From positions 9,734,001 through 9,798,000 of the forward strand of contig NC_135256.1 in assembly GCF_964204865.1 (NCBI RefSeq): DNA of 64,000 nt, in the 5' to 3' direction. Below, in pieces: positions 1-18,000 of this stretch. The number at the start of each line of letters is the position of its first letter. Within the stretch, counting starts at the first letter, position 1. The DNA is from Styela clava. Taxonomy: Eukaryota. Position numbers: made by a program.

Positions 1-3000
1 GAAGATATGAAGGTGAATGGAAGAATGGAATTGAATTAAATGGAGAGTATATTTTCAGTGATGGACTACAATATGATCCAGAAGATTGGTCTTATTGTAG
101 TGAAAACAACGACAGAAGATTTTATCCGGTAAACAATCAGTACATAGAAAGAAAGATGAATAATTTCACGTCTATAGAGTTCAGTTTGGTTTAAAAACTG
201 TACGTTGCTTGTCGGTGCCATTGAGATGGCTAGTTGAAGTTGAAGTTGACAAAAACAGAAGTAGCAGAAGCTCGGAAATTGGCGATTGATTAAATATACC
301 CAATATCAACAGTAATTCAGCTAACGCTATTGACATAGAATTCGCTCTCGTAGCTTCTTATCTAGCTATATATATTCAAAAGTATGCCACAAAAATTCAC
401 AGAAAAAAAATATAGTCAGCACGGAAAAATATTGTGTGATCAATCGGTATTATCTTTGCTATTACCAGTCAACGTTCATGTGGTTACAACACTACAACCT
501 CTCTCAAATACCCAAAATTGTGAGATTCCTTCGTAACTTTTTTTACAATTTTCTCTTTTGTAGGAGCATATCAACGGACTTAAACCATCAGATCGCTGTC
601 TCATGAGTGCACAAAGTGACAGCTTATCGGGAAAACCACTTCGCTATATACCCGATGGTTGCTATGATGCCGGTGATGGAATTTACGACCCATCCAGTAG
701 AGTATTATATCAATACGGAAAAAATGAAAAGGAACCTCTTGGAGCTTTTCTACGTAATGTCACGGACGAAGAACATTATTGGATTGTATCCCATTGTAGA
801 AAAGGTTGGGATGAATTTATCGGATTTCAAAAATCAACAGAAGAATGATACTTTTATATTATGTTATGCAATAGTGTGGATTTACAACAAATATAGTTTC
901 TCCGTATATTTTTCACTTCGAGAATATTACAGTGTTTGATCGAGCGTTTTAAATTTTCACTCTAATAATAGAACTTTCGTAATTAGATTTGGAAGAACTT
1001 ATCTCGATCACAAAACAGTAAACTTCACTTCATATTATATATGTGCGCATCCTTGTAACGTAAGTGTCACCCTTATCCAGTGATGGGACTTAAATTTTTT
1101 GTCAGCCGGTTTCATCACAAAAGTCATATTTTTCAGCCGGTTCTGTTGCAAAAAGTCATTGACAGTAACCAGTAATGCTGACCGGTTCGCTGATCTCATA
1201 AAATTCCGTGAGACGGTTCTATAGAACCGGTGCGAACCGGCTGAATCAAACCACTGCGTTTATCTAGAAGTACAGAAACGTTATCTCTCTGCCATTGTGT
1301 TGTGTTAGTACGCTGACCACCGGAAGCCGTATTATGCTGGTCATTCTTATCACCTTAAATTTATTTTTTATTTTTCGGCCATCGTTGAGAAAAGGAACAA
1401 TATAATATACTTCTTATGCTTTTGTATTTTGTCGTATAATTATAACCCGAATATATTACAAGAAGAACAACGTTCTTCCTCAAGCGCCGATCCTGCTTTA
1501 CATTTCACTCTGAAGCTTTGTCCATTCAGAATACATTTTCGTTTTCGTATTTTTCTACATGTGAAGTTTCTGCCGTACGAACATCGTGACCAACTTCCCC
1601 AGTTTTCCCATGAACCGCACTGGTAATTACATTCACGATTTTGCTCTAAATCGTCAACGTTGCAAGGAGGGACGATACATACTCGTGAGCGGTATGTCAT
1701 AGTTCCACAAGGATTGCAATCGTCCGACCAAGGACCCCAGTTGCCAAATTTCTCCACACATTTAATATCATCATTGCATGATCTTACTTTTTCTTTATTT
1801 CCTTTGCAAGAATCTTCTGATGGGAAGCATATCCTCTCTGCTTTTTGCGTTCCGCCGACACACGTTGAGCTACATTGTCCCCACGGTGACCATTCTGACC
1901 AAATTGGACACTGTTGTGAGTTGCAAATCACTACATCCTCCAGAGACAAGGAACATTGAGAATTATCTGAACTCATACAGTTTCGGTGTCTTCGTTTCAG
2001 TCCACCACCGCAGGTTTTGGAACATTGGGACCAAAATGTCCATTGTGTGTAATAATGAGCATCCCCGGATTTTGCTTCTAGTATTTCTGATTTTGACAAG
2101 TAGCACAAATTAATATCACAACATCCCTTCATACTTCCTTTCAATGGTTTCAACCAGTAAAGAGAACTCGGGACAGCATTAGTATATGGACAGTCAGATG
2201 GACGCTGAATGGATGTAGTTTTTGGCTTGCAAGGTCGTCCACCTTGAGTCATAAATGCTGGCCCACACCATTCAAAGTCTGCACCGTTGAAAAGATTAGC
2301 TAAATTAGGAACTGGAATGCTGTGGAAATTGCCCATGTTCAAGGGATTTTCAGTATTTGATGCCAAGGTCAATATATTAGTGTTAGGAACTGGTGGGAAA
2401 ACAGGCTGAGCTTCAATATTGTTTGAAAACATGCCCAGATTGTTTATTGCACTTGAAAATATTGTTCCTAAATTACCAAAACCAATGTTTAATTCTGTTG
2501 GAATGTATTCAAAAATGTTGTCCGCTCTGGTTTTTCCTTCTTGAACGCTGAGCCACAAATGCCAATGCTGGGATGCGTTCAGGGTCTTTCCATATTCGAA
2601 CATAAGGTTGTAATATGAGTCAACAACTTGTGGATCCACCTTACATCCAGCTTTTAGACAATAGTGCATACTTTTCAATATTTCTCGTGGCCCTCTATCA
2701 CTGAATATCTGGCATCGCGGGCGACCGTGAGGCATTGTAGTAAATGGACGCTCAAGCTCGGTCTCTCCGGATTTTATAGTAACCGAATCATCTACTGGAT
2801 AGAAACAACCAAGACCGTAACGCCAGCATCCACCAATCAGTGAACAGTATTTCGGTGTGATATCTGAAAAAATAAACAACTTTATCATCTCAAATCAATT
2901 TAAGTTTAGACAAAGAAGATACGAAATTAAATAGGGATGAGGTCTGCTTACTTCGACATTATCTACACGCCAACAATCTGACTTACTTTTCCAGCCTGCC

Positions 3001-15000: not shown

Positions 15001-18000
15001 GAAATGTTTCATTATATTGTTTTTCTCTTAGCAAATTCGTTTTATTTTCATGGGTGCGAATATAACCACGCTTTTCGATGCCAAGATCATTCATACCGAT
15101 ATTTTTATTTTACCAGATCCGTATCCTGGATTTCCACGATTACCCGCGTTTGTATGCCACAAGAGACCTAGATTCCCAGATAACTGTGATATGGAAGACA
15201 AAAAGGCTTTGAGATACACCAGGAATCCTCCGCTAAATATTCCCTACTGTATCAGGTAGAGGGAGCTTTAGCAACAAATGTTATCCTCTCAGTATTATTG
15301 CAATTAAGACTTGTATAACATTCTGAATGACCATTGACAAGTCTGTTTTCATTGTGGTTGTTAAAGTCAAAAATGCAATGGGGGTAAAATTGGTGATTTA
15401 TCTATATTTTTCGGTAAATAAAAGTTCCACTCATTATATTAAACATTGAAGTTAGTCGAAAGGTATTAAAGACCGGTGTTTGCCACTCATATGGACCGAA
15501 CGAGTATGTTAAATGATTTAGCATATATATGTGTATAAGTACAAATAAAACATCATACGAGCATCCCCGAAGGTAAATATTTTTCCGTTTTTTTTCATCT
15601 TCAGAATCCCTTGTGATCCGGATCTTCCTGAACTTGATGAAAGCAGGACGAAGTGCAGGGAAATGCCAGGATGTTTTTTTGATGTTCAACTGAGAGATTA
15701 TAGAAAAAAGTTTGGTCACAGCGTAATGGCGGGTGTCCCGGTATGCCAACTTGCAATAAGAAACAAAGTTTTTCTTGAAGAAGCGAGAAAAGTTAAAGAT
15801 AAGGTATATCAAATTTTCAGATCATAATGTTTTCAAACTGAGACATTTTCACTCGTTCGTGAACAACTGAATATTTTAATTCCGGAACTCAATCATATTT
15901 CTATTGCATTTTATTCAGACTGGAGAATGGACCCCTTATTTGAATGAATGTCTCCTTGATACCTTTGACGAAATTATTAGAACTAACCACGAAGGATGCA
16001 AGACATTAGAGATGTTAGAATATTTTAAGCATAAACCAAAAATTGCAGGATGGAAAGGTTTGTGTGTTGGAATATTAACATTGGCATTTTAAGTAAGACT
16101 CAAAACTATGTTAAACGGTGTGTGCCCAATGTAATGCCAGAGAGAGAGAGAGAGAGATTTATTGTCACAAACTGGGTCAACACTTGGGACAATTTGAAAT
16201 TTTGAAAGGTCATATGTCACATAGCACTATATACGGAACGACATCGCTGTTTCTGTCAAATTCAAAAATTGTGGAATGAGAGAGGGAATTAGGGAAAGAG
16301 AAAAAATGCCCAATCATACTAAATACATATGGCCATGTAATTCTCAAGCCTCGTGTTCTGATCTACACTGTATATCATTATTCGGACTTTGGTTCTATAT
16401 GTTCTCTTTTTAGCCACGTCATATAGTCTAAATCTAGGTAATAACAGTTAATACTATTTTAACTTCAAAACAGAATAATATTATTATTCCGAACAGGTAT
16501 AAAAGAATACGATTGTTATCTAATTGCCGGATGTTGGATGACAAAGAAATGCTATTATCCCGTTGATGTCAACAACGTAACAGTGAGCGCATCTCCGACG
16601 GAACACGACGATAAAATACCGAGTGCACTTTATTATGGTCGACCACCTTGTCAGAAATTCGACGATAAAAATGCAAAATCAGCAATTGAAAGTTATCACT
16701 CTTGCCTGGTGTCCGGCTGTAAACTGGATAAACATGCACAAAACTCTTATTATAACTATCTTTTTGATTTTGGGAAGTCGATGGATCCATCTGATCATTG
16801 GGTATTTTGGCGATTGGTGGAAAGTGGGAAATATGGTGCTCATAACTTAGATGAATATAATCTTCTACCAAAGCATGATGTTACAGTGACTCCTTTTTCT
16901 CTCGTTTTCAATTACCCGGCAAAACCAGGCGAATCAAATCTAATTGACGAATTACTACGTCCCGGATCTTCATCGCTTCTGGACATGATAAAAACTGGAA
17001 GTGGCCTGCAAGTACCACCAGCACATCAAAATATCAGAGATAGATTTTTGGAGGATTTGCAAGGCATTCAAACTCCTTGCTCGACCACATTTACGTCGTT
17101 TGGGGCAAGACCTTGTGGCCCGCCAAGATATAAACCAACGGGAGTGCCAAATCATTGTCCCTATCGCCCAATTGAGGATAAGGATTTGAAGCCGCTAAGA
17201 GGAAGTTTCGAAGGCTGTTGCGATATAACGTTATGCTATCATCCGAAAGAAGAAATTCCTAACGCCAGATCAGGCGCTGCCACATATTATTCAACATGGA
17301 GTTACTGGACTGAATGTTCAGCAACATGTGGCAAAGGGAATAAAAAACGATGGCGTCGTTGCATCGGCATGGATCAATCCCAATGCACGGGTAGAACGAC
17401 AGAGAATGAGTCTTGTGAAATAGTTCCATGCAGCTCTTGGAACAAATGGAGCAGGTGGAGTAAATGCTCGTTAACATGTAATAGCGGTGTCAGTACAAGA
17501 ACTAGGACTTGTAAACCCATAGGAGGGTTCTGTCCAGGACCCGATGAAGAAATTGAATCATGCAATAGTGAAAAGTGCAAAATTGATCGTTTATTCGGAC
17601 CATGGTCCGAGTGGAAAGGAAGTTGTAATCCTTGTGGTAAGAGCATTTATAGAAGTCGGGAGTGCGAGGCTACTACTTGCAACGATGACGACCTCTATGA
17701 AATTCAACAGTGCCCGACTGGGTGTGGAACTTGGTCTTCATGGAGCCCTTTTGGTCCATGTACTTGGGATTTTTTCTTCAGAACTTGTCAAAAGACTAGA
17801 ACTCGAGTCTGTAATGGTAAAAATGGAAGGCCTACAGAGTGCCAGGGTAATAGTGTAGATGTTGCTTATTGTATTTGTTAATATATAATAAAATACGAGA
17901 TGAAAATTATTACTTGTTACTTTTATCCCGAATATGTACTACTATATATATTCACTTTTGAAATGTTATATTCATTACATATTTACCTTTTTGTCGTGAT

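What the first reader, a model, noticed from the sequence alone, without database searches (positions are those of the whole stretch)
1440..17881. Head-to-head pair of ancient paralogs encoding an unfamiliar secreted trefoil-like plus TSP1 architecture
Two divergently transcribed genes (ATGs 3.9 kb apart) share 7 coding exons, identical intron phases (1,1,1,2,0,1) and an identical 199-nt exon 5. They align throughout (PYC.RIPC, PGC.FD, GVPVC..AIRN.VF, AGWK, GRP.CQ.F, LKPL.GS..GCCDI.LCY, A.SG.A.YY..W) yet are strongly diverged. Architecture: signal peptide, several Cys modules resembling trefoil/P-domains, a Pro/Asn-rich variable linker, then four TSP1 repeats; no TM segment or catalytic domain is evident. 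Inference: co-regulated, possibly heterodimeric components of mucus, adhesive, tunic or gamete coat. I do not recognise a named family.
Basis: partly seen in the sequence, partly recalled or inferred. Interest (0 to 1): 0.7.

Follow-up and report, generated by a model that had tools for sequence, protein, structure and literature searches.

The report
Two divergent sea-squirt TSR-protein genes
Two back-to-back genes of the sea squirt Styela clava encode related secreted, cysteine-rich proteins with thrombospondin-type repeats; they belong to a sea-squirt protein family that nobody has characterised and whose main domain resembles no solved structure.

Summary
Gene A (minus strand, 1440-6298) and gene B (plus strand, 10191-17881) each have 7 coding exons. 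All introns are GT-AG, the phases are 1,1,1,2,0,1, and exon 5 is 199 nt in both (same length, not same sequence). The ATGs lie 3893 bp apart. The last exons are 35.5% identical (E=7e-83).

The window is Styela clava, not human. Gene A equals RefSeq LOC120327960 (731 aa) and gene B is LOC120327761; both are named "uncharacterized protein".

They belong to a family of 60 representative proteins among 1.84 billion. Every named member is an ascidian "uncharacterized protein" from Styela, Ciona or Clavelina.

Architecture:
- signal peptide and a 6-Cys module;
- a roughly 265-aa disulfide-rich head, modelled with confidence but with no Pfam or PDB match;
- a disordered Asn/Pro-rich spacer and a 4-Cys module;
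- two canonical and two degenerate TSRs.

"Trefoil-like" rests only on sub-threshold leads. Co-regulation and heterodimerisation are unsupported. The most likely role, by inference only, is a secreted matrix- or mucus-type glycoprotein. This is a new variant of the TSR superfamily, of moderate interest.

The parts
6223..6298 (-). Gene A exon 1: ATG, signal-peptide-like hydrophobic start, first Cys of the N-terminal module
   Evidence: 76 nt, donor GT, phase 1 out; exact substring of P0018 at residue 1; top hydrophobic windows at residues 1-5
5716..5841 (-). Gene A exon 2: 5-Cys part of the N-terminal 6-Cys module
   Evidence: only a sub-threshold Pfam Toxin_23 hit (17 bits against a cut-off of 22.2)
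5126..5236 (-). Gene A exon 3: charged, Cys-free segment modelled as a long helix (P0018 residues 66-99)
4675..4792 (-). Gene A exon 4: start of the conserved head (FPxxC ... PPVxVPYC)
3632..3830 (-). Gene A exon 5 (199 nt): head, motifs IPC, PGCYFD, GVPVCHFAIRN
   Evidence: (E=2e-15 against gene B); no Pfam family
2987..3128 (-). Gene A exon 6: head, WNPY...C...GC...AGWK
   Evidence: (E=4e-10 against gene B); no Pfam family
1440..2863 (-). Gene A exon 7 (stop at 1440-1442): rest of the head, spacer, 4-Cys pre-TSR module, four TSR-type units, Cys-rich tail
   Evidence: (100% identity to P0018)
2268..2483 (-). Gene A spacer (approximate): Asn/Pro/Gly-rich, poorly conserved, modelled as disordered
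   Evidence: N 14, P 10, G 9 of 94 residues; pLDDT <50 at P0018 399-444; 10 of 81 columns identical to gene B
1443..2054 (-). Gene A TSR block and tail (approximate start)
   Evidence: Pfam TSP_1 55.6 bits against a cut-off of 21.6, 2 stretches; WxxW units at exon-7 residues 274, 321/324, 375, 418/421 and Cxx[ST]CxxG at 280 and 330; Foldseek hits to properdin and thrombospondin-1 TSRs
6299..10190 (.). Region between the two ATGs (3892 bp)
   Evidence: no internal or inverted similarity and no copy elsewhere in the window; no Rfam family, tRNA or tandem repeat
10191..10278 (+). Gene B exon 1: ATG, signal-peptide-like start, first Cys
   Evidence: 0 mismatches to P0003
13537..13653 (+). Gene B exon 2: 5-Cys part of the N-terminal module
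14673..14819 (+). Gene B exon 3: charged, Cys-free segment (helix 77-98 in the P0003 model)
15117..15255 (+). Gene B exon 4: start of the head
   Evidence: (E=4e-6 against gene A)
15605..15803 (+). Gene B exon 5 (199 nt): head
15919..16057 (+). Gene B exon 6: head
16497..17881 (+). Gene B exon 7 (stop at 17879-17881): rest of the head, spacer, pre-TSR module, four TSR-type units, tail
   Evidence: (TSP_1 67.5 bits)
17285..17878 (+). Gene B TSR block and tail (approximate start)
   Evidence: WxxW at exon-7 residues 267, 314/317, 369, 412; Cxx[ST]CxxG at 273 and 323

Best explanation
Shown: these are two intact, divergently oriented paralogs of Styela clava (RefSeq LOC120327960 and LOC120327761). 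They belong to an uncharacterised family found in all three ascidian orders that have named members.

Each gene encodes a protein of about 735 aa. Its parts, in order, are:
- a signal-peptide-like start;
- a small 6-Cys module;
- a charged helix;
- a compact, disulfide-rich head of about 265 aa with 14 family-invariant cysteines and no Pfam or PDB counterpart;
- a disordered Asn/Pro/Gly-rich spacer of variable length;
- a 4-Cys module packed before the repeats;
- two canonical and two degenerate thrombospondin type-1 repeats;
- a Cys-rich tail.

Inferred: the proteins are secreted and glycosylated. The WxxW and CxxS/TCxxG motifs are the known sites of C-mannosylation and POFUT2 O-fucosylation of TSRs. 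The proteins most likely act outside the cell as matrix- or mucus-type structural or bridging glycoproteins. The TSR stalk would hold sulfated glycans or other matrix partners, as TSRs do in known proteins. The head would bind a second ligand, still unknown and possibly a glycan. The flexible spacer would separate the two.

The pair arose by an old inverted duplication within an expansion that, among named species, is seen only in Styela. Nothing shows that the two genes share regulation or that their products bind each other.
For: Gene structure and paralogy.

Identity with RefSeq models.

Secretion: the only strongly hydrophobic window is at the N-terminus. Each gene has 51 cysteines, with identical counts per exon [1,5,0,3,4,2,36].

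TSRs:
- Pfam TSP_1 scores 55.6 and 67.5 bits against a cut-off of 21.6.
- Glycosylation motifs are present.
- 27 Foldseek matches at E<=0.001 are all TSR-bearing proteins: properdin, thrombospondin-1, C6/MAC entries and semaphorin-5A.

The head is real and conserved:
- AF2 mean pLDDT is 81.5 and pTM 0.67, and the 10-residue blocks over residues 131-280 and 301-370 average above 90.
- 14 cysteines between residues 123 and 331 are invariant in 16 of 16 full-length members.

The head has no known counterpart:
- 0 Pfam families in P0003 at E<=10.
- No credible PDB sequence hit at E<=10 in four searches: searches returned none, and one search returned one chance hit (E=0.77, an exonuclease).
- 0 Foldseek hits at E<=0.001, best E=2.0.

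Family:
- 60 representatives at E<=0.001, 39 at E<=1e-10 and 9 at E<=1e-30, among 1.84 billion proteins.
- 9 of the 10 hits at E<=1e-20 carry names, and all are ascidian 'uncharacterized protein'. With gene B (P0003), the named loci are four in Styela clava, three in Ciona intestinalis and two in Clavelina lepadiformis.

Matrix or mucus context:
- Spacers run from about 20 to more than 300 aa, with Gly/Pro/Phe-rich tandem units in P0081.
- One member (P0104) carries an N-terminal Mucin2_WxxW domain, E=2.9e-15.

The tree places A, B, the two other Styela paralogs and four unnamed proteins in one clade (SH-aLRT 99) with no Ciona or Clavelina member.
Against: - There is no expression, localisation or ligand data of any kind, so the function rests on architecture alone.
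- TSRs occur in proteins with very different roles (complement, guidance, proteases), so they do not fix a function.
- The lack of a structural match for the head gives no functional analogy.
- The signal peptide was judged from hydrophobicity only; no dedicated predictor was available.
- The origin of the unnamed family members is unknown, so 'ascidian-only' is not shown.
- The tree is a quick search of 29 of the 66 family proteins held. It has several long branches and is unrooted.
- The model coordinates could not be inspected, so disulfide pairings and domain packing are not known.
Confidence: 0.5

Rival explanations
1. Mucus-type lectin proteins. The head would be built from strongly diverged trefoil (P-domain)-like modules that bind mucin or other glycans. 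The proteins would be components of the endostyle or gut mucus.
For: - Sub-threshold Pfam Trefoil hits fall in two different head modules: P0091 residues 160-192 (12.7 bits), where the motif reads GCCFD, and P0093 residues 24-48 (13.0 bits).
- ESM Atlas features of head residues 118-385 put three Trefoil clusters first, at 0.78, 0.77 and 0.76.
- P0104 carries a Mucin2_WxxW domain ahead of the family architecture.
Against: - The Trefoil hits are in 2 of 57 members and below the 21-bit cut-off. Genes A and B have none at E<=10.
- The Atlas scores are under 0.9, which the tool calls a lead only. An earlier Atlas look-up of residues 1-525 gave no usable hit.
- Head-only profiles found no trefoil protein among PDB sequences at E<=10.
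- Foldseek listed no trefoil entry.
- In most members the CC pair of the motif is a single Cys, and about 20 residues, modelled as a helix, sit where a trefoil has a short loop (the trefoil spacing is recalled).
Confidence: 0.15
2. Humoral innate-immune recognition factors of a properdin-like or complement-associated kind, diversified by lineage-specific duplication.
For: - The best structural matches are properdin and complement C6/MAC TSRs.
- The expansion is lineage-specific.
- The database alleles differ from the window at the protein level: 96% identity for gene B and 98% for gene A.
Against: The matches are to generic TSRs only, and thrombospondin-1 and semaphorin-5A match as well. No MACPF, C-type lectin or other immune domain was found. 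High polymorphism is usual in ascidians (recalled).
Confidence: 0.12
3. One reading: a co-regulated pair whose products form an obligate, possibly disulfide-linked, heterodimer.
For: The genes lie head to head. Both have the same cysteine framework, and the count of 51 is odd, so at least one cysteine cannot be in an intramolecular bond.
Against: - The ATGs are 3893 bp apart, which is long for a shared promoter.
- There is no shared or inverted sequence between them.
- Two further Styela paralogs (LOC120327758, LOC120329034) are not in the window, so pairing is not a family rule that can be seen here.
- The tree does not resolve A and B as sisters.
Confidence: 0.1
4. Larval or adult adhesive (papilla or stolon/holdfast) or gamete-coat components.
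For: According to passages of a review (PMC12817120), TSP1-domain proteins are among the stolon proteins and papilla-enriched transcripts of Ciona. TSR-bearing astacins act in ascidian fertilisation (abstracts of PMC6353882 and PMC11673157 in the listing).
Against: None of those proteins was shown to belong to this family. The one TSR marker described in PMC10962819 (KH.L96.43) has a trypsin-like domain, which this family lacks. The supplements that might list family members were closed.
Confidence: 0.08

Closest known systems
Thrombospondin type-1 repeat (TSR) superfamily of secreted proteins (properdin, thrombospondin-1/2, semaphorin-5, complement C6, and 'coadhesin'/hemicentin-like invertebrate proteins)
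   Same: C-terminal tandem TSRs above the Pfam cut-off, WxxW and CxxS/TCxxG motifs, secretory architecture, and Foldseek matches at E down to 5e-10.
   Different: The similarity is confined to the TSR block, which covers 18-42% of the query. None of the domains that define those proteins was found. The N-terminal 520 or so residues have no counterpart in them.
Trefoil factor / P-domain (Pfam PF00088)
   Same: Short motifs of the type C...GC[CY][FW]D and C.LI.GCW....C.YP. Sub-threshold Pfam hits in 2 of 57 members. Trefoil clusters rank first in the ESM Atlas look-up at 0.76-0.78.
   Different: Below every threshold. No sequence or fold match to solved trefoil structures. The CC pair is mostly not kept and the loop lengths differ.
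Uncharacterised ascidian loci: Ciona intestinalis LOC100176068, LOC100180672, LOC108949537; Clavelina lepadiformis LOC143467999, LOC143467902; Styela clava LOC120327758, LOC120329034
   Same: The same full-length architecture and invariant cysteine framework, with profile E-values from 1e-147 to 1e-241.
   Different: 27-41% identity to gene A. Spacer length and the number of TSRs vary. None has a described function. A search of paper texts for six of the LOC numbers found 0 papers.

Membership tests
TSR superfamily (Pfam TSP_1, PF00090) | Match to the TSP_1 profile above the gathering score | tested here: met
   55.6 bits (gene A) and 67.5 bits (gene B) against 21.6, with 2 stretches each. 47 of 57 family proteins match.
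TSR superfamily (Pfam TSP_1, PF00090) | WxxW tryptophan ladder and CxxS/TCxxG O-fucosylation motif (motif definitions recalled) | tested here: met
   WxxW heads all four units in both genes. Cxx[ST]CxxG is present in units 1 and 2 only.
TSR superfamily (Pfam TSP_1, PF00090) | TSR fold | tested here: met
   Foldseek on the P0018 model: 27 matches at E<=0.001, all TSR-bearing proteins, for example 1lsl at E=6.7e-8 with 36% identity.
Trefoil / P-domain (PF00088) | Match to the Trefoil profile above the gathering score (21 bits) | tested here: not met
   No hit in gene A, gene B, P0018 or P0003 at E<=1 to 10. 2 of 57 family members score 12.7 and 13.0 bits.
Trefoil / P-domain (PF00088) | Trefoil fold (three-loop, three-disulfide module) | tested here: inconclusive
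   Foldseek on the TSR-free P0003 model gave 0 matches at E<=0.001 and no trefoil entry in the printed list. However, a 40-aa module inside a 506-aa query is a weak test, and the coordinates could not be cut or inspected. Atlas lead at 0.76-0.78.
Thrombospondins proper (TSP-1/2 and others) | EGF-like repeats, calcium-binding type-3 repeats and a C-terminal lectin-like domain (recalled) | tested here: not met
   Pfam finds only TSR-type families in P0018.
Ascidian head-plus-TSR family (unnamed; defined here) | Head with 14 invariant cysteines and the motifs PYCxR.xC, PGC, D, VPxC, GW, GC...C, followed by CP[YF]...G..CC....C and TSRs | tested here: met
   Both genes carry every invariant column of alignment A2. 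The profile search recovers them with the family.
Bidirectional-promoter gene pair | Divergent transcription starts less than about 1 kb apart (definition recalled) | tested here: inconclusive
   The ATGs are 3893 bp apart. Transcription starts and any 5' non-coding exons are unknown.

The most novel reading that the evidence does not exclude
The head is a new disulfide-rich fold that arose in tunicates, possibly from degenerate trefoil-like modules, and it binds a tunicate-typical polysaccharide: tunic cellulose, sulfated glycans or mucus glycans. The family would then be a lineage-specific organiser of the tunic or the feeding mucus. Paralog pairs such as A and B would be joined through their odd cysteine into covalent hetero-oligomers.
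Probability: 0.1. Interest if true: 0.7.

Novelty: new variant of a known kind. Interest (0 to 1): 0.42.

Why it matters
Tunicates are the closest invertebrate relatives of vertebrates, and they build unusual extracellular materials: a cellulose tunic, feeding mucus nets and strong adhesives. The protein parts of these materials are poorly known.

This is a conserved, multi-copy ascidian family of secreted proteins. Its 265-aa head is modelled with confidence yet has no Pfam or PDB counterpart. That makes it a concrete candidate for such a component and a possible new extracellular fold.

The practical gain is modest until expression or binding data exist. The genes are already annotated, and only the family and its head domain are undescribed.

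Tried and rejected
Searches were made exon by exon or with the database models P0018 and P0003 that the search tool returned.
- Co-folding of the two heads (P0018 105-385 with P0003 125-405): 'no answer', score 0.00; the alignments were not used and the partner's own fold was uncertain. This counts neither for nor against binding.
- ESM Atlas on P0018 residues 1-525: no usable hit.
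- PDB sequence searches with A1, P0003, A5 and A6: nothing except one chance hit, E=0.77, an exonuclease.
- Nucleotide comparison of the two loci and of the region between them: no hits.
- Rfam, tRNA and tandem-repeat scans of 1-19000: nothing except one 40-bp repeat at 18532-18571.
- Literature: 8 full-text searches and passages of 4 papers gave no description of this family.
Expression could not be tested either, nor could the model coordinates be inspected.
- Considered and rejected: human origin, because the best matches are Styela clava RefSeq proteins at 96-100% identity; pseudogenes, because both frames are open with the cysteine framework intact; a third copy in the window.

Full report
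**Origin and scope.** The window has no N and a GC content of 0.31-0.42. It is not human. The last exon of the minus-strand gene is 100% identical to a Styela clava RefSeq protein, and that of the plus-strand gene is 96% identical to another. Searches were made exon by exon, or with the database models that the search tool itself returned (P0018, P0003).

**Observation.** Two stop-to-stop frames of 484 and 472 codons face away from each other, at 1440-2894 (minus) and 16463-17881 (plus). I compared all open frames left of 9700 with the DNA to its right. Five collinear pairs came out:
- last exon: 35% over 480 columns, E=2.5e-84;
- exon 5: E=2.5e-14;
- exon 6: E=2.3e-10;
- exon 4: E=3.9e-6;
- exon 2: weak, E=0.35.

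I read the splice sites from the sequence and checked them by script. This gives 7 coding exons in each gene. All 12 introns have AG and GT, the phases are 1,1,1,2,0,1, and exon 5 is 199 nt in both. The ATGs are 3893 bp apart, and the products are 731 aa (gene A) and 737 aa (gene B). Exon 5 is identical in length only: 27 of 66 residues are the same.

All seven exon translations of gene A are exact, ordered substrings of RefSeq LOC120327960 isoform X2 (P0018). Gene B's exons match LOC120327761 (P0003) with 9 mismatches, until that older model leaves the window's open frame at exon-7 residue 197. There is no third copy in the window. No nucleotide similarity survives between the loci or within the 3.9-kb region between them.

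**Anatomy.** The only strongly hydrophobic 19-residue window is at the N-terminus of each protein. Both genes have 51 cysteines, with identical counts per exon: 1, 5, 0, 3, 4, 2, 36. Pfam recognises only TSR families: TSP_1 at 55.6 and 67.5 bits against a cut-off of 21.6. It finds nothing in exons 5 and 6, nor in P0003, which lacks the TSRs.

Each C-terminal 200 or so residues hold four WxxW-led cysteine units. The first two have the CxxS/TCxxG motif and pass Pfam. The last two are shorter and degenerate.

AlphaFold2 on P0018, with a 57-row family alignment, gave mean pLDDT 81.5 and pTM 0.67. The 10-residue blocks over residues 131-280 and 301-370 average above 90. Residues 399-444 fall below 50, a stretch that lies in the Asn/Pro/Gly-rich spacer. 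Confidence is high again for the 4-Cys module and the TSRs. Within exon 7, A and B share 49 of 121 columns in the head part, 10 of 81 in the spacer and 37 of 76 in the pre-TSR module.

**Family.** I built a profile of the TSR-free parts of the two last exons and searched all 1.84 billion representative proteins. It found 60 at E<=0.001, 39 at E<=1e-10 and 9 at E<=1e-30. Full-length members (600-990 aa) share the whole architecture. In 16 of 16 aligned members, 14 cysteines between P0018 residues 123 and 331 are invariant, as are C482, C505, C506 and C511. The members that matched only the pre-TSR module turned out to be N-terminally truncated fragments of the same family.

In a name-giving search, 9 of the 10 hits at E<=1e-20 carry names, and all are ascidian 'uncharacterized protein'. 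With gene B, the named loci are four in Styela clava, three in Ciona intestinalis and two in Clavelina lepadiformis. The look-up that would have given the sources of the other members was switched off. A range beyond ascidians can therefore be neither shown nor excluded.

I built a quick maximum-likelihood tree of 29 of the 66 family proteins held, leaving out the short fragments. It puts A, B, the two other Styela paralogs and four unnamed proteins in one clade (SH-aLRT 99) with no Ciona or Clavelina member. B groups with P0001 and P0002 (99), and A is not resolved as B's sister. The duplication is therefore old (35% identity, no DNA similarity), but it lies inside an expansion that, among named species, holds only Styela.

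**Comparison with known structures and families.** Foldseek on the whole P0018 model returns only TSR-bearing proteins: 27 matches at E<=0.001, covering properdin, thrombospondin-1, C6/MAC entries and semaphorin-5A. The P0003 model (pLDDT 74.3, head blocks mostly above 90) has no TSRs. It returns no match at E<=0.001, and the best is E=2.0 at probability 0.03. Four PDB sequence searches, two of them with head-only profiles, found nothing credible at E<=10; the only match was one chance hit (E=0.77, an exonuclease).

- 2 of 57 family members give sub-threshold Pfam Trefoil hits (12.7 and 13.0 bits against 21).
- Those two hits fall in two different modules: the PYC..IPC...PGC[CY]FD stretch and the C.LI.GCW....C.YP stretch.
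- The language-model look-up of head residues 118-385 lists three Trefoil clusters first, at 0.76-0.78. That is under the 0.9 the tool requires.

I therefore do not file the head as trefoil, but I keep the idea as a rival. One member, P0104, carries a Mucin2_WxxW domain ahead of the family architecture (E=2.9e-15). That is a small hint of a mucus- or gel-type context.

**Function.** Nothing here measures function. From the architecture and from established knowledge of TSRs (secreted, C-mannosylated and O-fucosylated modules that bind sulfated glycans and matrix or cell-surface partners), I take the proteins to be secreted extracellular glycoproteins that bridge two ligands. One ligand would be held by the novel head and one by the TSR stalk, with a flexible spacer between. 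They would lie in a matrix, the tunic, mucus or an adhesive.

The odd cysteine count allows, but does not show, a covalent dimer. The head-to-head layout with 3.9 kb between the ATGs, and no shared sequence there, is no evidence of shared regulation. Transcription starts and expression are unknown. The rivals are mucus lectin, immune factor, obligate heterodimer, and adhesive or gamete coat. They are listed with what would refute each.

**Literature.** Eight full-text searches found no paper on this family. One of them, on six LOC numbers, returned 0 papers. Passages read in a review (PMC12817120) say that TSP1-domain proteins occur among Ciona stolon proteins and papilla transcripts. The TSR marker in PMC10962819 has a protease domain and is a different protein. 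PMC3390340 and PMC6109156 describe other TSR proteins. The supplements were closed and may list family members.

**Verdict.** This is a real, correctly described pair of old paralogs. Both are already annotated as uncharacterised loci. They belong to an undescribed ascidian family whose TSR part is ordinary and whose head has no known counterpart. It is a new variant of the TSR superfamily, of moderate interest, with its function still open.

Noticed in passing
window 16497-17881 (gene B exon 7) against P0003; window 1440-3128 against P0019: The older database models of both genes are defective relative to the window. P0003 leaves the open frame at exon-7 residue 197 and ends in an out-of-frame tail, so it lacks every TSR. 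P0019 skips exon 6 and about the first 70-80 residues of exon 7, and it also ends out of frame.
   Followed up: partly
genes A and B, all exons: Both paralogs keep exactly the same number of cysteines in every exon (1, 5, 0, 3, 4, 2, 36) despite only 35% identity. The total of 51 is odd, so at least one cysteine cannot be in an intramolecular disulfide.
   Followed up: partly
family member P0104 (not in the window): One family member has a Mucin2_WxxW domain (PF13330, E=2.9e-15) in front of the usual N-terminal module and head. P0083 starts with what looks like the end of such a domain.
   Followed up: partly
family members P0113 and P0086 (Ciona intestinalis): The two Ciona proteins share an identical 34-residue stretch and lie on a contig of the same length (5,437,517 bp). 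The two Clavelina members also share one contig length. This suggests clustered paralogs in other ascidians, or a gene-model artefact. Orientation could not be checked.
   Followed up: no
family alignment A2, columns about 220-260 (gene A exon 3 end, window about 5126-5150): A short motif of the type R-[LF]-[FL]-x(2-3)-G-G, after an acidic stretch, recurs in most members between the N-terminal module and the head. Its meaning is unknown.
   Followed up: no
window 23402-24631 (+), 25388-26422 (+): Two long single-exon frames: an LRWD1-type WD domain (E=6.8e-53) and a Cupin_8/JmjC domain (E=1.5e-42).
   Followed up: partly
window 37945-42800 (+) and 57180-59869 (+): Exons of an HSP90-family gene (HATPase_c and HSP90 domains) and of a vigilin-like multi-KH gene. 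These are ordinary housekeeping neighbours with no further matrix-type gene.
   Followed up: partly
window 19911-20195 (-) and 20650-21018 (+): Isolated frames just right of gene B: one with a weak PHD-finger match (E=2e-4), one with no Pfam match. They may be remains of a mobile element.
   Followed up: no
window 3-191 (+): An open frame running in from the left edge of the window (YEGEWKNG...), reminiscent of MORN repeats by eye. It has no Pfam hit at E<=0.001.
   Followed up: partly
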